Assembly (NCBI GenBank): GCA_963645865.1
Contig: CAVIUM010000001.1
Coordinates: 35,858 to 99,857, forward strand
Reading direction: 5' to 3'
Origin: Lachnospiraceae bacterium
GTDB taxonomy: Archaea; Thermoplasmatota; Thermoplasmata; Methanomassiliicoccales; Methanomethylophilaceae
DNA: 64,000 nucleotides
The notes below the pieces were generated by a model. It did not search any database, was not told where the DNA came from, and saw nothing but the letters and a program-made list of their open reading frames with translations. Made by a program: the position numbers and the translations under genes. Below, one piece after another: positions 3,213-60,904 of the stretch (within the stretch, counting starts at the first letter, position 1; every line of letters starts with the position of its first letter).

Positions 3213-4565
3213 TCACATCTCCGGCAGGGACCGTTTCCCAAGGACCTTGATGATCTCGGATTCCCTCTTCCCGTTGGAGAACACAACGGCGGAATCGCCC
3301 TCCAGGAGCTTCGTGTCCAGGAGAGGGTATATGATGGAGTCCCCGCGGCGTATCGCGACGATCCGCAATCCCTCGGGCATGTTCAGGTCCCCGACGAAGC
3401 GGCCCTCGAGCTTCGACGATCCGTCGATGACGTGCGTGAAGAACAGCCCGTCGGTGAACTGCATCCGGGCTATGGTGGCCTTCTCCGGAAGGACGCATTT
3501 GATGATCTCGTTGGAGATTATCCTGTCGCAGCCGATTATGGTCAGCAGATCCGCGTACCTGAAGATGTCCTCGTATTCCCTCATGAAGTATCTGGCTATG
3601 ACCTTCCGGGCATTGTGCCTCTTCGCGGACATGCACACGAGGAGATTGGTCCCGTCGCGGCTCGAGGTGGAGACGGTGGCGTCGGATTTGAACAGGTTCT
3701 CTTCGAACTGCACGTCGGGGTCCGTGTAATCGGAATTGATGACCGACACCCCGGACAGTTCCCTGGTGAGGGTCCTGCACTGTTCGGGGTTCTTGTCGAC
3801 GATCTTGACGTAACGTTTCTGGGGGTCCTCCGTGAGCATCTTGGCCAGATTCATGCCGACGACGGAGCCGCCGAGGATGCAGAACTCACGGCTGACGTGA
3901 TCCACCCCGACCAGGTCGTTGAACTCCTCCACTGCCCGGTCGCTGCCGAAAACGCACAGGAAGTCCCCGCTGTGGATCTCCATGGTCTCCGGGGAGGTGT
4001 ACATCTCGCCGTCGCGATAGATCGCGAACACCGTGCAATCCCGGGCCATAGGCAGCTGCATCACCACGCGTCCGCGGATCTGATGGTGGGGTTCGACCTT
4101 GAACACCGCGATGCAGGCGCCCATCTCATCGACGGCGTCGTATTCGATGGCGTTCTCCAGGACGCAGAGCTTGTACATCTTCCTGGCCGTGACGAGGTCG
4201 GGGGAGACGATGTGGTCCACGCCGTCCATGCCAGATGCGTTGGATTCCGCGACGAAGTCGGGACCGTCGACGGTGGCCACGGTCTTGATCCCGGGCTTGA
4301 TCCTTTTGGCCATCATGCAGACGAACAGGCTGTCAGAATCGGCGGGGAGCGATGCCAGGATCACATCGGCCCCGTGGCTCTCGATGGCGTATCTGAGAAC
4401 GCGGGGGTTGGTCCCATCCTCCCTCAGGACGGCGACGTTCAGACGGCTCTTCAGGCTCTCGGCGACGTCCTCGTCCTTCTCGATGACCAGCACGTCATGG
4501 TCCTCGGAGATGGTCTCGGCGGAGACGAATCCCACATCCCCCGCCCCGACGATGATGACCTTCAT
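3213..4565 (-). CDS. trkA: Trk potassium uptake NAD-binding subunit TrkA
   Basis: MKVIIVGAGDVG Rossmann start; two RCK_N/RCK_C units; adjacent to trkH. Confidence 0.93.
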   Translation of the reverse strand: MKVIIVGAGDVGFVSAETISEDHDVLVIEKDEDVAESLKSRLNVAVLREDGTNPRVLRYAIESHGADVILASLPADSDSLFVCMMAKRIKPGIKTVATVDGPDFVAESNASGMDGVDHIVSPDLVTARKMYKLCVLENAIEYDAVDEMGACIAVFKVEPHHQIRGRVVMQLPMARDCTVFAIYRDGEMYTSPETMEIHSGDFLCVFGSDRAVEEFNDLVGVDHVSREFCILGGSVVGMNLAKMLTEDPQKRYVKIVDKNPEQCRTLTRELSGVSVINSDYTDPDVQFEENLFKSDATVSTSSRDGTNLLVCMSAKRHNARKVIARYFMREYEDIFRYADLLTIIGCDRIISNEIIKCVLPEKATIARMQFTDGLFFTHVIDGSSKLEGRFVGDLNMPEGLRIVAIRRGDSIIYPLLDTKLLEGDSAVVFSNGKRESEIIKVLGKRSLPEM

Positions 4566-9816: not shown

Positions 9817-11094
9817 ATGGTGACGGCCACGAGGTTCTTCGAACAATCCGCCGAGTTGAACGGCGGCATCGTGAAGAACGGCCTGTGCTCCATATGCAAG
9901 GGCGCCCACCGCCTGTGCGGGAAGGACCGCTGCCCCCTGATGGTCAAATTCTATTCGCAACAGAAGTCGCGCCCGCTCATCGACGCCACCGAGCTGGCGG
10001 GGTCCAGTCCCCCCGCGGTCTTCGTCGGCAGGTACGGGTATCCCAAGGTGGACATCGGACCGCTCCTGCCGCCGGAGTTCGGGGACACCTCCCTCATGGG
10101 CACCCCGGAGAGATGGGTCGGGAGGTCCATCGACGAGATCGTCGACTTCAGATTCAGGCTGGTCCGCGGGAAGTTCAGGATCGACGCCACCGACTTCAGG
10201 AAGAGCGGGAAGATCGTGGACGGGGTGCAGGAGCTGGCGCTGTCGGAGCGTCCCGTGGATACCGAGGCATCCTTCACCCAGAAGCCCAAGGGACGCGTCG
10301 TGTTGGACGATGACATCGAGCCCTTCGGTCCGTCCGCGAGGATGGAGAAGATGTCCACGGGCAACAGCAGGTTCGAGAGGAACCTGGAGAAGAGCTTCTA
10401 CGACACCGACATGAAGGCGACCGACGCCGTCGTCTCCGCCTACAGGAACGGCACCCTGATCTCCGAGATCCAGAAGGCGTTCTCCGTCGGCACCATGGGG
10501 ATGGGGAGGAACCGTCGCTTCGTCCCCACGAGATGGAGCATCACCGCCGTGGACGACATCATCGGGAAGGACCTGCTGAAGACCACCAAGTGGAACCCCA
10601 CTATCGACGATTTCCGCCTCTACCAATGGACGGAGCTGGACAACAGGTGGGCGATCCTGCTGATGCCCTGCACCTGGAGGTTCGAGCTCATCGAGGCGTG
10701 GTATCCGAACACCACCTGGAACCCATCGGGCAGGACGATAGACATCATCCACGACAGCGAGTTCTTCGACGGCAGGACCGAGTACGCCCACATCGGGGGA
10801 TGCTACTACGCCTCCAGGATGGCGGTGAACGAGCTCCTGATCGAGGAGGGGAGGACCGCGGGAGCGGTAATAATGCGCGAGGCCCATCCCGGGTACATCA
10901 TGCCCGTCGGCGTATGGAACGTCAGGGAGAACGTCCGTGCGGCACTGAAGACGGAACCGACCCACTACGAGACCCTGGATGCCGCATTGGACCGGGTGGA
11001 GAAGATGATGGACATCCGCAGGGACGGATGGATCGCCAATTCCGACGTCATGCGGGATTGGCTCGTTCAGAGGAGGATCGAGGACTATTACCGA
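9817..11094 (+). CDS. nreA: Nre family archaeal DNA repair protein (CGA-terminated)
   Basis: N-terminal CxxCKG..LCG..RCP, GSSPP.VFVGRYGYPKV, PTRWSITAVD, GGCYYA and PVGVWNVRE. C-terminal PIP-like QRRIEDYY is followed directly by CGA 11092-11094; the standard-code ORF continues to 11694. Confidence 0.92.
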
Positions 11095-13689: not shown

Positions 13690-14109
13690 TCGGGCGTCGA
13701 AGAACGCGGCCAACGAGGATGCCGTGTGCTTCGCATCCTCGATGACATCGTGGAGCTCCACTCCGATCTCCGATGGGATACCGTGATTGTAATCCCATCC
13801 GATGACCGCGTAGTCCGGATTCATCCAGTATTCGACGAAAGGCGGGACCTTGTTAAAGTACGAGGTATCGCCGGGCACATCGAGAACTGGATAACCAGAA
13901 TCGTTGTACTGCAGTTCAGCGGAGATCCTGTCGAAATCCATATTCCTCATCACGATGTAGGCGCAGAACCACCCCTGCCTCCCTTCGTATATCTGACTGC
14001 CTGCAGGGATGCACAGGGACACGAAGCGCACGACGATCTCTACATCGATATCGTCGTTCAGGTGCAACATCTCGGTGTGAATTGTCTTGTCGTCCTCCTC
14101 GAACCACAT
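13690..14109 (-). CDS. Hypothetical protein, about 139 aa (CGA-terminated)
   Basis: MWFEEDD...GWFCAY...LDVPGDTSY...IGWDYNH...AAFFDA, then CGA TAC CGA. In the standard code it is buried in a 752 aa ORF that runs antisense through the whole thermosome gene. Confidence 0.7.
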
Positions 14110-26968: not shown

Positions 26969-28659
26969 TGTTCATACCGACCACGGCCGACGAGGTCCGC
27001 CGTCTCGGTTGGGAGAAGCTGGATGTGATCCTCGTCTCCGGGGACACGTACACCGACAACTCCTACAACGGGACGGCCCTCGTGGGCCACTGGCTGATCG
27101 ACCACGGGTTCAGGGTCGGGATAATAGCCCAGCCCGACGTATCGTCGGGCGATGACATCTCCAGACTGGGGATGCCGGAGCTTTTCTGGTCCGTATCCGC
27201 CGGGTGCGTCGACTCCATGGTCGCCAACTACACCCCCACGAAGAAGTTCAGGAAGGAGGATGATTTCACACCCGGAGGGGTGAACGACAGGCGCCCCGAC
27301 AGGGCGTGCATCGCTTACACCAACCTGATCAAGAAGCACATGAAGGGGAGGCCGGTCATCCTCGCAGGGATCGAAGCGAGCCTGAGGAGGATCGCCCACT
27401 ACGACTTCTGGTCCGATTCCGTCAGGAGATCGATCCTCTTCGATTCCAAGGCCGACGCCATCGTCTACGGCATGGGGGAGCTGGCCAATCTCGAGATGGC
27501 CCGCCGCATGCGCGACGGGAAGGACTGGAAGGGAGTGGACGGGATCTGCCACATCGTCTCCTCCGAACCGGAGGGCTGCATCCGCCTCCCCTCGTACGAG
27601 GAGGTGTCCTCCAGGGAGGACCGCAGGCCTTTCATGAAGGCGTTCGAGGTATTCAGACGCAATTCGGATCCGATCACGGCCCAGCCCCTCTGTCAGAAAC
27701 ATGGGGACAGATGGCTGGTGCAGAACAGGCCCATGCGCTGCATGACCTCCGAGGAATTGGATTCCGCCTACGGATCGGATTTCGAGAACGCCGTGCATCC
27801 CTACTATGCGAAGCAGGGCAGGGTCAAGGCCATGGAGACCGTGAGGAACTCCATCACCACCCACCGCGGATGCTACGGGAACTGCTCGTTCTGCGCCATA
27901 GCCGCCCATCAGGGCACGACCGTCGTTTCCCGTTCGAAGGGATCCATACTCGCCGAAGTGGAGAGGATGGCCTCCCGGAAGGGCTTCAACGGCGTCATCC
28001 AGGATGTCGGAGGGCCCACGGCCAACATGTACGGCATCGAATGCAGGAAGAAATGCACCGTGGGGAGGTGCGAGGACCGCAGATGCCTCGACGGCCCCTG
28101 TCCCAAGCTGGGGATCGACCATTCGGCCCAGATCGACCTTCTGCATTCCATATCCGAAGTCGACGGGGTCCGGAGGGTCTTCGTGAACTCCGGGATAAGG
28201 CACGACATGATCGTCGCCGACAAGCGGATGGGCGGCGAGTATCTCGATATGCTCGTGTCGAAGCACGTCTCCGGTCAGATGAAGATCGCTCCGGAGCACG
28301 TATGCGACGATGTCCTGAAGCTTATGGGGAAGCCCGGCAGCGATGTCCTCCGCAGGTTCAAGGGCATGTTCGACGCTTCCTGCAGGAACCTCGGCCGGGA
28401 CGAGTACCTCACCTACTACTTCATCGCCGCCCATCCGGGCTGCACCGACGACGACATGCGCGAGCTGAGCAGGTTCTGCCATGACGAATTGAAGATCTCC
28501 CCGGAGCAGGTGCAGGTCTTCACCCCCACCCCGTCCACCTATTCCACGGCGATGTGGTGGTGCGGCACCGATTCCAAAGGGAGGCCGGTGAAGGTCGAGC
28601 GCTCGATCCAGAGACGTCAGCATCAGAAGGAGCTGGTGGTGGGGAAGGGTGGACGCTGA
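26968..28659 (+). CDS. YgiQ/UPF0313 family radical SAM protein
   Basis: DVILVSGD.Y.D, DSMVANYT, GIEASLRRIAHYDFW, HRGCYGNCSFCAI, GGPTANMY, SGIRHD, KIAPEH and YFIAAHPG. Confidence 0.93.
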   Translation: MFIPTTADEVRRLGWEKLDVILVSGDTYTDNSYNGTALVGHWLIDHGFRVGIIAQPDVSSGDDISRLGMPELFWSVSAGCVDSMVANYTPTKKFRKEDDFTPGGVNDRRPDRACIAYTNLIKKHMKGRPVILAGIEASLRRIAHYDFWSDSVRRSILFDSKADAIVYGMGELANLEMARRMRDGKDWKGVDGICHIVSSEPEGCIRLPSYEEVSSREDRRPFMKAFEVFRRNSDPITAQPLCQKHGDRWLVQNRPMRCMTSEELDSAYGSDFENAVHPYYAKQGRVKAMETVRNSITTHRGCYGNCSFCAIAAHQGTTVVSRSKGSILAEVERMASRKGFNGVIQDVGGPTANMYGIECRKKCTVGRCEDRRCLDGPCPKLGIDHSAQIDLLHSISEVDGVRRVFVNSGIRHDMIVADKRMGGEYLDMLVSKHVSGQMKIAPEHVCDDVLKLMGKPGSDVLRRFKGMFDASCRNLGRDEYLTYYFIAAHPGCTDDDMRELSRFCHDELKISPEQVQVFTPTPSTYSTAMWWCGTDSKGRPVKVERSIQRRQHQKELVVGKGGR

Positions 28660-52968: not shown

Positions 52969-54513
52969 ATGGGAGAAATCGGACGTTTCATCGACGGGAT
53001 GCCGTCGCTTCGCTTCAGGAACGGAAAGATCGCGGTGCACATCCCCCGGTACATCTCGGACGAGGATGCGCTGCTGGAAGTGGGATTGGAATGTCCGAAC
53101 GGCCGCAGAATCGTCGGCAGACTGCCGGAGAGCGGATTCCCCGGAACGAGCGAACCCGCCTCCGTCATCATAGACGGGATATCCCCTCTCGACGGGTTCT
53201 CGGTCCTGATAGACGGATGCGCGGTCTACGAATGCCCCCGCACCGATGCCCTGTACTTCGGTGCCGATGGCAGGCAGATCGGGGAACCCGACGGAATGAC
53301 AACCGCTGTCAGGAGACCTGGGTCCGGACCTGACATCGGAGATGCGATTTCCATCGCGCCTCTCGGCGATGCGGAAGCAGTGGTGTACGCCGCTCCCGCG
53401 CTCGAACGCAGGTTCGAGATCTCCAGGCCGTCTGTCCGGTTCAGGGACGGCGTCTCCTACCTCTACGTCGCCAGATACATCGGCGTCCCCGGTGACCTCT
53501 TCCTCGTATCCATAGCAGGGGATTTCGGCAGGATCGATCTGGGGAAGATGCCGTCGAAGTCTGCCGACGGGAAGCAGATCGCCTCCGGGACGGAATTCAG
53601 ACTATCCGATTACGGCATCACGGTCCTCGATTGGTTCGATGTGATGATCGACGGGCGCAAGGTCTTCTCGTTCCCCCAGCGCGATGTCCTCGTCTTCTCC
53701 GAGAGGGGCACCGTCACGGCATTCCCCCTCGACAAAGCTGTAGTCGTCTTCCTCGACGACGTCATCATCGAGAGCGACGGGGAGTGCCTGAAGGAATGTT
53801 CGCTTCCAAGCGGTATCCTCTATCGCCTCTACGAGGCCGAAGGGCCGATATCCTTCGGAACCAGCATCCCCGATTATTCGCCCGAGCCTGAGACGATCGA
53901 GCAAACCTGCGATCCCGTACCCGGACCTACGGTCATCGAGGAGGATACGGAAGAGGGTCCGAACATCCCCGGACCGGAGATCGAGGAGGTACCCCGGGAA
54001 CCCGATACCGATCCCTATCCGGAGGTCCCCTCGGGATCCTTCGTCCGTCTCACGCCGAGGATGGTGCTGAGGGAATCGGGGATACTCCGCAGGGTCGGCG
54101 TGCTCGTCCCCGAATACAGGCCTTCAACGGAGAATCCCGTCCTGACCGCCGTCGGGAACCGCGGGCGCATCGAGATCGGCCCCCTGCCCATGGGCAGATG
54201 GGCGTCGAAGGAGACCGTCGTCAGCATCCAGGCGTACGGCATCAATCCCCTGGAGACGTTCTCTCTGGAATTGGAAGGTAGGACGATATTCACCAGCCAG
54301 GGCACCAACATTCTGTTCTTCACCTCCGAGGGCACCAGGCTGACCACGCCCCGCGGAAGGATAATCGCGGTCCACCGCCCCGAACTGGAGCTCGGTGTCC
54401 GCGGTGCGGCGAGATGCAGGATCGTCTCCTCCGAGGAGCGCGGCGGACTGGTGTACGACGAGGTGGAGCTCGGGGCCAGGGGCACCGTCTACAACATGAA
54501 CGTCGAACGCCGA
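52969..54513 (+). CDS. Hypothetical protein with three internal repeats (CGA-terminated)
   Basis: 514 aa; three similar beta-rich units and a Pro/Glu linker; first in-frame CGA at 54511-13. Confidence 0.72.
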
Positions 54514-58296: not shown

Positions 58297-59490
58297 TCAC
58301 TGGGCGGGGGTTTCGGGCGCCTTGGCGGGGGCGTCGTCGTCGAAGGTGTTGTTGCCGGACATCATGTCCTCATAAAGCAGGAACAGCTCGCTCTGGGAGA
58401 GGCTGCGGTGCATCTGGCAGGAGGCCTTCCTCACCAGGACGAGGAGGTTCTCCGCATCGTTCCTGCTGATCTCGATGCCCATGTCGCTCAGAGCTGCGGT
58501 GATCGTGTTCCTGACGGAGTGCTTTCCGATGATGATGGACCTCTCCATGCCGACCTCTGCGGGGTCGTAGGGCTCGGTGACTGTCGGATCGTGGGCCAGT
58601 CCGTCCTCCTGTGCGAAGCACTTCGAACCGATGACGGGCTTGCCGGGATTGATGGCGATACCGGACGCCTTGGAGACGGATTCGGCGATGGTGTGCATCT
58701 TGGCGGTGTCGATACCGGTGTCCATGCCGAGCATGTGCTTGGAGACCATCACGACCTCCTCGAGCGGGGCGCATCCGGCCCTCTTACCGATACCCATGGC
58801 GGTGACGCGGGCGAACCTCGCACCGCTCTTGACGGCGGCGACGGTGTTGGCCGTGGCCATGCCGAAGTCGTTGCGAGCGATGATCTCCACATCGATCCCG
58901 GCGATCTGCCTGAGCATCCTTATGCGCTCGGAGCAGGTGAAAGGGTCCTCGATGCCGAGACTGTCGGCATATCCGAAGCGGTCGGCTCCGGCACCCTTGG
59001 CGACCTTCGCGAAATCGATCAGGAATCCGAGGTCTGCCCTGGATGCGTCCTCGGCGACGAAAGAGATGTACAGGCCGTGCTCGGCGGCGTAGGAGGTGGC
59101 CTCGTAAATCTTGTCGAGCACCCATTCCCTGTTCTTGTTGTACTTCTTGGTGATCAGAACGTCGGAGGCGGGGAGGGAGATCGAAACGGCGTCGACGTCG
59201 CACTCCAGACTGACGTTGATGTCCGCTATGTCCGCCCTGTTGCTGGACATGACGGAAGCTGCGAGACCCATGTTCGCGATGTGGCGGACCGCGGTCTTCT
59301 CCTCCGGACCGATCATGGGCATGCCCACCTCGATCTGGGGAACGCCCGCTTCGTTCAGGAGCTGAGCCATCCTGTATTTCTCAATGTTCGAGAACACGAC
59401 CCCCGCGGCCTGCTCCCCCGCGGAAAGCGTGGAATCGCATATGCATACAGGTGCGTTCAGCCGGTCGACTACCTCGTTCTTCGTCTTCAT
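58297..59490 (-). CDS. Homocitrate/isopropylmalate synthase-family protein with degenerate active site
   Basis: Fold motifs GEQ.AGV.F, IEVG, AEDASRAD, NDFGMATAN, EPYDP and IGKHS. DSTLSAGEQ and ARND replace the canonical DTTLRDGEQ and HxHND. Confidence 0.85.
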   Translation of the reverse strand: MKTKNEVVDRLNAPVCICDSTLSAGEQAAGVVFSNIEKYRMAQLLNEAGVPQIEVGMPMIGPEEKTAVRHIANMGLAASVMSSNRADIADINVSLECDVDAVSISLPASDVLITKKYNKNREWVLDKIYEATSYAAEHGLYISFVAEDASRADLGFLIDFAKVAKGAGADRFGYADSLGIEDPFTCSERIRMLRQIAGIDVEIIARNDFGMATANTVAAVKSGARFARVTAMGIGKRAGCAPLEEVVMVSKHMLGMDTGIDTAKMHTIAESVSKASGIAINPGKPVIGSKCFAQEDGLAHDPTVTEPYDPAEVGMERSIIIGKHSVRNTITAALSDMGIEISRNDAENLLVLVRKASCQMHRSLSQSELFLLYEDMMSGNNTFDDDAPAKAPETPAQ

Positions 59491-59860
59491 TTGCATCCCA
59501 TCCATCGGCCCGCCTTCGGAGACGGCCTCTGTGCTTCTCCGTATATATTCGCGCTATTTAAAGTTCGAATCGGGGTCAAAAAAAGACGATTGCAATCGGC
59601 ATCTCAACTCTAACACTTAACAAATAATATAGTTGAGTCTGAACGTGGTCGTATTTACAGTTCCTACAACGTGTGGTTCCAGAGACAGAATTGCCGAAAA
59701 GAAATACAAACGAAGTGACAGGGTCCGTATGTCCTGTCATGTTGGAACCAGTCGTATCGTATGAGGAATGGCGGGACGCCCGTTCCGTTCCGATGACCGA
59801 GATGAGCTCCGACAAAGAGGATTCGGACTCGCGCGATAACCAGCCTTCTCCGAGATCCCA

Positions 59861-60904
59861 TCGATCCATCCTGTATCTCAGGATCGCACCCATCCCGCCC
59901 AACGCGGCGAGGGACTTCCCCCCGTCATGCTGTCCGGAAACGACGATGACGTTGCCCTTCTGGGATTCGACCGCGCGCACCACATCGTCCAGATCCTGAT
60001 CCCTGACCTTCGAGTCGAGCAGCAGGAGAGTCTCCACAGCCCCCGACAGGGCGGCATCGCGCACCTCCGAGGTCCCGTACGTCCCGAGCCCGTTGGGCTT
60101 GGATATCTCGGACATCAGCTTCTCCACGGCCTCGATCTCCGTTCCGACGGCCGAATCCCTCAGGACATCGGCACCCATGCCCGCCTTGAGCAGCTCGTTG
60201 ATCCCGGCCATCCCGCACTGTCCCGTGTGGTAGACGTACATCTTCCCGAACAGATCCGGACGCATCCTCTTGAGGTCCTCGGACAGCGTCTCCTTCTCGA
60301 ATCCCGGGCCCAGGAGGACCAGCGGCATGTTGGGCTCCATCAGCGGTGCGAGCTTCTCCGCTATCTCGGCGTGGTACGAATCCGCCTGCGGCTTCTCCGC
60401 GTACTGCTTCCCGGACCTGCCGGAGCGGATGGTCACCACCTCCTTCAGGCCGTACTGCCTCAGGACCGCGACGGTCGCGTCGTCCTGGTCCAGGGACACG
60501 AACACGATCCTGGGCTTCTTGGAATCCGACACGGCCCTCCTGAGCCTCTCGAGCTGGGTCTCCCTCCAGTGCTCCTTGGAGATCGTCAGGGAATCCCCGT
60601 TCTCGAGGATCAGCGTGTGATGCTGTCCGATATCCTGCGGACCGGTCTCGATGGTTCCCAGGAGCTTCAGCCTGAGGTCGTCCTCCGAGAACTCGATCTT
60701 CTCCATGCGCACTCCGAGGGTCATCCTCTTCTTCTCCGCCCTCTCGGCGCGGAGCTTGTCGGCGGACTTCTCCTCGCGCCTGGTGGTGGAAGCTGTGACG
60801 AGATCCCCCACCTCGATGACGTTGTACAGGTGCCAGATGTCCTCATCGGTCTCTATGAGCACCTTTATCCCGCCGGACGAGGGATCCTCCCCGAGTATGC
60901 GCAT
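59861..60904 (-). CDS. pelA: Pelota ribosome rescue factor (CGA-terminated)
   Basis: EDIWHLYNVI..GD.V...TTR, GQHHTL, GPGFEK and LGGMGAILRYRMD followed by CGA 59861-63. Confidence 0.94.

What the first reader, a model, noticed from the sequence alone, without database searches (positions are those of the whole stretch)
59576..60904. Pelota, the ribosome-rescue paralogue of aRF1, itself ends in CGA
SEEN: ...GGMGAILRYRMD-CGA; the standard code adds about 95 unrelated residues running through the AT-rich region upstream of the next gene. KNOWN: archaeal pelota ends a few residues after the LR[YF] motif and rescues stalled ribosomes with aEF1A. INFERENCE (speculative): if CGA terminates by stalling, a CGA-terminated pelota could form a feedback loop. 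Otherwise it is a further strong stop example.
Basis: partly seen in the sequence, partly recalled or inferred. Interest (0 to 1): 0.72.

Follow-up and report, generated by a model that had tools for sequence, protein, structure and literature searches.

The report
CGA: fourth stop codon in methanogens
In this gut methanogen and many of its relatives the arginine codon CGA mostly acts as a stop signal; the pelota gene is just one of about 400 genes that end on it, but the gene for the stop-reading protein itself keeps one CGA inside, which looks like a built-in feedback brake.

Summary
Observation confirmed: pelota (347 aa) ends ...LRYRMD-CGA (59863-59861); the 95-residue table-11 tail is non-coding. 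The pelota feedback idea is not supported: the same position is TGA or TAA in 42 of 48 family genomes, and TGA in a 99%-identical relative. What is real is larger. Genome-wide, coding signal collapses after CGA as after TGA; about 395 of 1,981 gene calls end in CGA; CGA and TGA swap at orthologous stop positions; internal CGA is 1 of 8,558 arginine codons in the genus (217 of 3,631 in other families). The likely feedback loop sits in aRF1: 64 of 65 CGA-purged Methanomethylophilaceae loci keep a CGA in its N domain, at six different arginines. A tRNA(UCG) is kept, with a broken anticodon arm in the genus. eL18 and an ATP-synthase-H-like gene also keep an internal CGA, so CGA is dual: mostly stop, sometimes arginine. 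No translation data exist here. The scan noted CGA-as-stop in this genus before, on other DNA (e1-5716919); the aRF1 site, tRNA defect and family spread are added here. Ten literature searches found no description; one preprint raises CGA=stop for a different archaeal order.

The parts
59864..60904 (-). pelota gene, 347 codons (ordinary archaeal pelota)
   Evidence: TIGR00111 above cut-off; full-length alignment to solved archaeal pelota chains 3j15, 3oby, 2qi2
59861..59863 (-). CGA acting as the stop codon of pelota; followed by U (+4)
   Evidence: same column is TGA/TAA in most relatives; coding score collapses after it
59576..59860 (-). 94-codon table-11 tail plus TAA: intergenic DNA, not protein
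   Evidence: no Pfam match, score -0.46 per codon, GC falls to 0.44; not shared by relatives
9817..11094 (+). Nre DNA-repair gene ending in CGA: a second clean example in the window
   Evidence: Pfam Nre_C ends at residue 424 of 425 at the last profile position; table 11 would add 199 codons across the next gene
52969..54513 (+). gene ending in CGA whose table-11 tail (309 codons) would run over two downstream genes
13690..14109 (-). gene ending in CGA with a 577-codon table-11 tail antisense to the neighbouring gene
   Evidence: one of 13 CGA-ended calls among 55 in the window

Best explanation
CGA is a dual-use codon in this archaeon (genus of Ca. Methanoprimaticola, family Methanomethylophilaceae): by default a fourth, somewhat leaky stop codon, and arginine at a few kept sites. 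SHOWN by sequence: about a fifth of genes, pelota among them, end at CGA; CGA has been purged from gene interiors; a tRNA with anticodon UCG is kept but its anticodon arm is damaged in the genus; aRF1 keeps one CGA in its N domain, upstream of GGQ, and the site has moved between arginines in different lineages. INFERRED: at each CGA the release factor aRF1 (with aEF1A) competes with the weakened tRNA-Arg(UCG). Plenty of aRF1 truncates its own translation at the internal CGA; scarce aRF1 lets Arg in and restores the factor: negative feedback like bacterial RF2, but by in-frame readthrough. The loop would hold the stop/Arg balance where ends terminate and eL18 and the ATP-synthase-H-like gene can still be read through. 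Pelota is a passenger: its CGA is an ordinary TGA/CGA swap. Rough odds of the steps: CGA ends pelota and hundreds of genes 0.93; aRF1 is the releasing factor 0.85; the aRF1 CGA is a feedback sensor 0.8.
For: Genome: after an in-frame CGA the next 30 codons lose coding score in 92.5% of 199 cases (mean -0.41), as after TGA (92.4% of 970, -0.44); all other sense codons average +0.10 to +0.36. CGA in 548 long ORFs by decile: 68,24,2,2,3,4,4,8,18,56. Relatives: at the aligned stop column TGA>CGA 18, CGA>TGA 14, CGA>TAA 1, CGA=CGA 4 in 35 same-genus genomes; no CGA in 77 stop-to-stop columns in other families; internal CGA 1 of 8,558 Arg codons (genus), 1 of 3,604 (G091, genus g22), 217 of 3,631 (other families). 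97 of 282 CGA-ended genes lie within 30 nt of the next same-strand gene, 35 with a CGATG-type one-base overlap; 97 of 277 table-11 tails would overlap the next gene by over 90 nt. Leakiness: +4 U in 53% of 285 against 31% of 1,159 for TGA; back-up TGA/TAA within 5 codons 28% against 14.5%; rarer in genes with the best codon scores (24 of 356 in the top fifth, 101 of 356 in the bottom). aRF1: CGA at Arg78 in 30 of 31 full-length genus sequences; among 104 distinct family sequences, 64 of the 65 whose flanking genes have no internal CGA (13,709 Arg codons) carry one in the N domain, 61 of them as the only CGA, at codons 78 (32), 25 (19), 11 (7), 9, 50, 123; N domain 67 of 480 Arg codons, M/C domains 2 of 935. 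tRNA(UCG): pair 31:39 broken in 31 of 31 genus copies found, by three different mismatches, 0 of 38 in other genera, 0 of 13 in other families, while three neighbouring pairs change on both sides; four more genus genomes have C33 in place of U33. Precedent: yeast eRF1 releases at CGA in competition with tRNA, more so with Arg at L123 (PMC7379694); these aRF1s have Arg there.
Against: No proteomics, ribosome profiling or release assay. The U1-reading residues are unchanged (NIKS in 64 of 65), and the structure paper says C at position 1 should not fit (PMC4605324). The family-wide R68>M/L change is also in 14 of 16 loci that still use CGA as sense, and Arg at L126 is in all outgroups, so neither explains the switch. 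eL18 keeps an internal CGA in 124 of 127 matches and the ATP-synthase-H-like gene in 73 of 89: readthrough must be efficient there, which simple competition does not explain. aRF1 of other families is already CGA-rich in the N domain (27 of 198 Arg codons; 19 of 23 genomes), and one other aRF1 Arg codon is as fixed (CGT at 186 in 31 of 31), so fixation at one site proves little; the argument rests on relocation and on purging elsewhere. Other CGA-purged genera have a near-normal tRNA(UCG). Genomes are related, not independent. My homology counts use queries cut at this genome's CGAs, so internal CGAs shared with it are invisible (eL18 was missed until).
Confidence: 0.75

Rival explanations
1. 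CGA is a stop, but stop-versus-Arg is set by local mRNA signals, not by aRF1 level; the CGA in aRF1 is a fixed damper or a leftover, not a feedback sensor.
For: eL18 and the ATP-synthase-H-like sites lie in invariant nucleotide motifs and need efficient readthrough; terminal CGAs prefer +4 U while these two sites and aRF1 codon 78 have G, A and C; outgroup aRF1 N domains are already CGA-rich.
Against: The aRF1 CGA has moved among six arginines with different flanks, including +4 U at codons 11 and 123, so the codon, not a motif, is kept; it is purged from the M/C domains of the same gene (2 of 935).
Confidence: 0.14
2. One reading: ribosomes stall at CGA and pelota-aEF1A rescue ends translation; a CGA-ended pelota regulates itself.
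For: The tRNA looks weakened; CGA ends are somewhat fewer inside operons than TGA ends (34% against 44%, p=0.004); pelota binds stalled ribosomes without sequence preference (PMC5119991 passages); 5 of 29 is borderline above the 7% CGA share at conserved stop columns (p=0.054; 4 of 28 without this genome, p=0.14).
Against: Pelota stop is TGA/TAA in 42 of 48 family genomes; no GGQ and no internal CGA; the same paper calls pelota a poor competitor except in long stalls; 97 CGA ends are operon-internal, 35 overlapping the next start; the conserved CGA is in aRF1; the operon deficit is expected because the common ATGA overlap cannot be written with CGA (inference).
Confidence: 0.04
3. CGA is only a rare arginine codon; the tails are real or tolerated.
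For: A tRNA(UCG) with the A20-type D loop is present; CGA is plainly Arg in aRF1 and eL18; 28% of CGA ends have a standard stop within 5 codons, and some of those may be sense.
Against: Coding collapse equal to TGA; 33 stop swaps at the same column; 39% of tails exceed 50 codons; CGG and other rare codons show no such collapse.
Confidence: 0.03
4. C-to-U editing turns terminal CGA into UGA in the mRNA.
For: Would leave aRF1 specificity unchanged.
Against: 55,170 out-of-frame CGA triplets lie in coding regions, so editing would have to be site-specific at hundreds of freely swapping sites, and then internal CGA need not be purged; it explains neither the aRF1 site nor the tRNA.
Confidence: 0.02

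Closest known systems
Bacterial RF2 (prfB) autoregulation by +1 frameshift at an internal UGA (described in PMC3521657 passages)
   Same: A release-factor gene holds, early and before the catalytic motif, a codon that the factor itself would stop at
   Different: Archaeal aRF1, unrelated fold; in-frame readthrough with Arg, no frameshift; the codon is CGA; its position moves
Mimivirus R726 / Megavirus mg280 class-I release factors (PMC3521657, passages)
   Same: eRF1/aRF1-type factor with internal stop needing readthrough
   Different: Viral, standard stops, readthrough plus frameshift; that 2012 paper states such regulation is absent from archaeal and eukaryotic homologues
Sense-to-stop reassignments in mitochondria: UCA/UCG in Sphaeropleales, UUR in Pycnococcus (PMC6821328, passages); AGA/AGG in vertebrates (recalled)
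   Same: A former sense codon ends genes and leaves gene interiors
   Different: Organelles with bacterial-type factors and, for UCG, no cognate tRNA; here a free-living genome, about 400 genes, tRNA kept, codon begins with C
eRF1 misreading of CGA in yeast (PMC7379694; abstract, first half of Results, Discussion)
   Same: Release factor competes with a weak tRNA at CGA; Arg at L123 enhances it
   Different: Low-level effect on reporters; here it appears fixed as a genome-wide stop
Possible CGA stop in two Njordarchaeales assemblies (bioRxiv 10.64898/2026.04.02.715157, parts 1-3 of 4 read)
   Same: CGA missing from conserved domains in archaea
   Different: Other order; raised only as a possibility; tRNA(UCG) not found there; comes with CGG=Trp, whereas CGG behaves as sense here
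Archaeal pelota (TIGR00111)
   Same: Full member by sequence
   Different: Nothing found apart from its stop codon

Membership tests
Archaeal pelota (TIGR00111) | score above curated cut-off, ends just after LR[YF] | tested here: met
   283.7 against 177.65 bits; ends 3 residues after LRY
Archaeal pelota (TIGR00111) | no GGQ peptide-release motif | tested here: met
   none in 25 genus ORFs
   6 of 48 family genomes
   full outgroup pelota genes were not in hand; only compared with solved chains
Sense-to-stop codon reassignment | codon stands at orthologous stop positions | tested here: met
   33 swaps in the genus, 5 in genus g22 loci, 8 against G091
Sense-to-stop codon reassignment | codon absent from gene interiors | tested here: inconclusive
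   1 of 8,558, but conserved exceptions in aRF1, eL18 and an ATP-synthase-H-like gene: dual, not pure
Sense-to-stop codon reassignment | cognate tRNA lost | tested here: not met
   tRNA(UCG) kept; altered in the genus
Sense-to-stop codon reassignment | release-factor change that tracks the new stop | tested here: inconclusive
   R68>M/L is family-wide; best N-domain correlate is T122>A (61 of 65 purged, 1 of 16 sense, 0 of 23 outgroup), confounded by kinship
Sense-to-stop codon reassignment | peptide release at the codon shown | not testable with these tools
   needs proteomics or a release assay
prfB-type release-factor autoregulation | conserved internal stop upstream of the catalytic motif | tested here: met
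   64 of 65 CGA-purged loci
prfB-type release-factor autoregulation | +1 frameshift at a slippery site | tested here: not met
   frame continues unbroken; the CGA aligns to Arg in homologues
prfB-type release-factor autoregulation | recoding rate falls as factor level rises | not testable with these tools
   needs a reporter

The most novel reading that the evidence does not exclude
Methanomethylophilaceae hold a naturally evolved sense-to-stop change in a free-living organism: aRF1 reads CGA, a stop that begins with C, in tuned competition with a weakened tRNA-Arg(UCG), and sets its own level by readthrough of an internal CGA; genera that still use CGA as sense, genera that have purged it and a genus with a damaged tRNA form a living series of how a new stop codon is born.
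Probability: 0.65. Interest if true: 0.95.

Novelty: new variant of a known kind. Interest (0 to 1): 0.88.

Why it matters
Known sense-to-stop changes that I found described are mitochondrial, and the two large prokaryotic code screens state that they cannot infer stops directly. A C-starting stop challenges the structural rule that eRF1-class factors need U first, and recoding-based autoregulation was described as absent from archaeal release factors. The family spans purged and unpurged genera, so the intermediate stages of stop-codon birth can be compared, and it has cultured members (own knowledge), so the claim is directly testable. Practically, about a fifth of this genome's proteins would be annotated with false tails under table 11; incoming standard-code DNA would be truncated at CGA. 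The pelota locus alone is ordinary.

Tried and rejected
Pelota loop: rejected. RNA test of editing: RNA-library contigs of 4 runs laid on a G091 stretch with the aRF1 CGA and one CGA stop; run X1 covers both with all 11 differences listed and none at these sites, but its flat, long contigs look like DNA; for X2 only 3 of 5 differences on the covering contig were shown; inconclusive. Intrinsic scan for internal CGA missed eL18; reverse homology search was swamped by antisense frames and was filtered; one search gave 101 raw candidates, mostly CGAs just upstream of the true start, judged by eye. tRNA search: blastn found 19 true UCG genes among 37 genomes; a strict pattern missed many; a looser one recovered most; a very loose one was useless; the Rfam search gave no answer. 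The covariance model R1 and the count had the anticodon stem one column off; one search is the corrected count, and R1's hits were checked with ARAGORN. No UCG tRNA was found by pattern in G005, G006, G017, G019, G021, G026, G028, G035, G036 and G069, and these were not followed up. Pooled genus tests are confounded by each locus holding aRF1's own CGA and were not used. G005's aRF1 (Lys78, CGA25) has an N-terminal stretch like genus g22 and the assembly is 8% contaminated, so it is not counted as a relocation; L139 (AGA at 78, CGA at 11) is one within the genus clade. The tree is the quick tree, SH-aLRT only. Bacterial promoter/terminator scan of the tail: nothing, and not apt for archaea. 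The 4-bp anticodon-stem tRNAs of PMC13092985 (passages) open the top pair, not 31:39, so they are not the same thing. Wider genome samples of the intermediate genera were not obtained, so their CGA status rests on about 20 kb each. No structure or complex prediction was run: it cannot show codon reading.

Full report
1. Observation. The gene at 60904-59864 (minus strand) is pelota (TIGR00111). It reads ...GGMGAILRYRMD and then CGA at 59863-59861; table 11 continues to TAA at 59578-59576, 95 residues more. The tail matches no Pfam family and scores -0.46 per codon against +0.38 for the gene.

2. Organism. The assembly G000 (2.28 Mb, 218 contigs, GC 0.60) has a tRNA-Pyl. Its aRF1 groups with a record named Ca. 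Methanoprimaticola sp. MG2, within Methanomethylophilaceae; other clades of the tree hold records named Methanomethylophilus, Methanogranum and Methanoplasma.

3. Is pelota special? No. In 29 of 30 same-genus loci with a parsed end, the stop column holds TGA 20 times, TAA 4 and CGA 5; in 19 genomes of other genera of the family, CGA once. G034, 99% identical in protein, has TGA. 5 of 29 equals this genome's overall CGA share (19.9%, p=1.0) and is borderline above the 7% share at conserved stop columns in relatives (p=0.054). Pelota has no internal CGA and no GGQ. Substitutions in pelota specific to the lineage were not tested.

4. CGA is a stop genome-wide. In 548 long ORFs CGA is nearly absent from the middle and piled at the ends. 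After an in-frame CGA the coding score collapses in 92.5% of 199 cases, as after TGA (92.4% of 970); no sense codon exceeds 38%. With CGA allowed as a stop, 395 of 1,981 closed gene calls end in it, against TGA 1,494, TAA 75, TAG 17 (these calls also cut the few read-through genes); 13 of 55 calls in the window. Against sampled loci of 35 same-genus genomes, CGA and TGA/TAA swap at the aligned stop column 33 times; 16 CGA columns and 43 TGA columns faced a sense codon; other families show no CGA in 77 stop-to-stop columns. Inside aligned regions, aRF1 left out, CGA is 1 of 8,558 Arg codons in the genus, 1 of 3,604 in 400 kb of G091 (genus g22) and 217 of 3,631 in other families. 97 of 282 CGA-ended genes are operon-internal, 35 overlapping the next start by one base. 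CGA looks weaker than TGA: more +4 U (also outside operons), more back-up stops, fewer well-adapted genes; yet 39% have no standard stop within 50 codons.

5. Spread. On about 20 kb per genome, genera g1, g22, g21, g17, g12, g20, g27, g14 and g16 show no or almost no internal CGA; g29, g23, g18, g28, g26 and part of g24 still use it at low rates. Stop swaps to or from CGA were seen only for g1 and g22; for the other purged genera 'stop' is inferred from absence.

6. The loop is in aRF1. The single aRF1 gene found (G000:C71:5302-4073, minus) has one in-frame CGA, at Arg78 (human R81), in 30 of 31 full-length genus sequences. Of 104 distinct family sequences, 65 have flanking genes without internal CGA; 64 of these have a CGA in the N domain, 61 as the only CGA of the gene, at codons 78, 25, 11, 9, 50 or 123. 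In that set CGA is 67 of 480 Arg codons in the N domain and 2 of 935 in the M and C domains. A codon purged from 13,709 neighbouring positions but kept, and moved about, in the front part of the release-factor gene is the pattern of prfB-like feedback (PMC3521657 passages). Against over-reading: other families already have CGA in 27 of 198 N-domain Arg codons (19 of 23 genomes), which may be a forerunner or a plain 5' codon bias; CGT at codon 186 is equally fixed; kin are not independent.

7. The tRNA. G000 keeps tRNA(UCG) (C131:2839-2912) with an A.A mismatch at 31:39. All 31 genus copies found by blastn or pattern break this pair (A.A 13, C.A 17, U.C 1); none of 38 copies in other genera or 13 in other families does; pairs 27:43 to 29:41 change on both sides in the 13 aligned copies. 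G007, G008, G015 and G149 instead have C33, A37 and C38. That such changes weaken decoding is inference from general tRNA knowledge.

8. Other kept CGAs. Ribosomal protein L18e (NF003079) has CGA at codon 30 in 124 of 127 matches among 141 genomes, inside an invariant nucleotide motif also seen in 5 other-family loci; three genus genomes changed to CGT. A gene like ATP synthase subunit H (below cut-off) has CGA at codon 3 in 73 of 89 matched genomes (one stray second row dropped), with escapes to CGG in five genomes, four of which are those with the C33 tRNA. So CGA must be read as Arg, efficiently, in some contexts. This is the main thing my model does not fully explain.

9. aRF1 changes. GTE, E55, NIKS and YxCxxxF are intact. 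R68 is M or L throughout the purged set but also M in 14 of 16 sense-using loci; in human eRF1 R68 contacts rRNA and R68A almost abolishes release (PMC4605324, PMC3632111 passages). T122>A tracks best (61 of 65, 1 of 16, 0 of 23), in a stretch known to shift specificity (PMC3384315 passages). Arg at L126, which raises CGA release in yeast (PMC7379694), is shared with outgroups. No substitution is shown to be causal.

10. Literature. Searches: (listings and abstract starts). None showed CGA as a stop in this family or recoding in an archaeal aRF1. The 2026 KACI preprint (parts 1-3 of 4 read) raises CGA=stop as an open possibility for two Njordarchaeales assemblies and says neither KACI nor Codetta infers stops directly. 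PMC8629427 was seen as passages; its supplement with per-genome calls was not read and may show CGA as uninferred here. The library lacks most subscription papers.

11. Verdict. Pelota's CGA is real and ordinary within an extraordinary code. CGA as a working stop: about 0.93. Whole model with aRF1 feedback: 0.75. Pelota loop: 0.04. Interest 0.88, nearly all of it from the code and the aRF1/tRNA arrangement, not from pelota.

Noticed in passing
G000:C16:27941-27585 (L411), CGA at 27854: L18e gene carries the motif ATCTGGCGAGA, invariant at nucleotide level across the family and in five other-family loci; probably an RNA or DNA regulatory element, unidentified.
   Followed up: partly
G000:C62:4306 onward (L412): ATP-synthase-H-like gene starts TTG AGC CGA; its first ten codons are nearly invariant in DNA across the family.
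   Followed up: partly
G000:C24:3837-2893 (L413), CGA at 3369: SIS-domain and HAD-phosphatase parts (GmhA/GmhB-like by recall) are in one frame, joined by a CGA: a possible readthrough fusion, or a GTG restart two codons on.
   Followed up: partly
G000:C2:74912, G000:C155:864, L337 (G091): Nitrogenase-like two-part genes (by recall of the motifs) have an in-frame CGA at the linker near codon 275-285, while a paralogue in G000 is fused without it: possible gene fission by CGA.
   Followed up: no
G000:C206 (270, 558, 1137) and C179:1656: Transposase-like and reverse-transcriptase-like ORFs (labels recalled, not searched) hold internal CGAs, as expected for standard-code incomers cut short by this code.
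   Followed up: no
G000 whole; C21:14891, C4:19293: TAG is rare as an end (17 calls); only 40% of 45 in-frame TAGs are followed by coding collapse; two align with TAG in G091 homologues; tRNA-Pyl on C36.
   Followed up: no
L031, aRF1 codons 78-79: The codon after CGA78 is always CTN in the purged set and CTA in 8 of 33, though CTA is 2% of Leu codons in G000; recalls the UGA-CUA readthrough context (recalled).
   Followed up: no
L113, L114, L123-L126, L161: Record titles name bacteria although the contigs encode this archaeal aRF1: the titles look mislabelled.
   Followed up: no
L176: aRF1 has an in-frame TAG at a Gln position near codon 55 besides the CGA: error or pyrrolysine-type readthrough.
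   Followed up: no
L365 (G137): ARAGORN calls two tRNA(UCG) genes about 300 nt apart.
   Followed up: no
window 58297-59490: Downstream neighbour is a homocitrate/isopropylmalate-synthase-like gene, below all curated cut-offs; carbamoyl-phosphate synthase genes lie divergently upstream of pelota.
   Followed up: no
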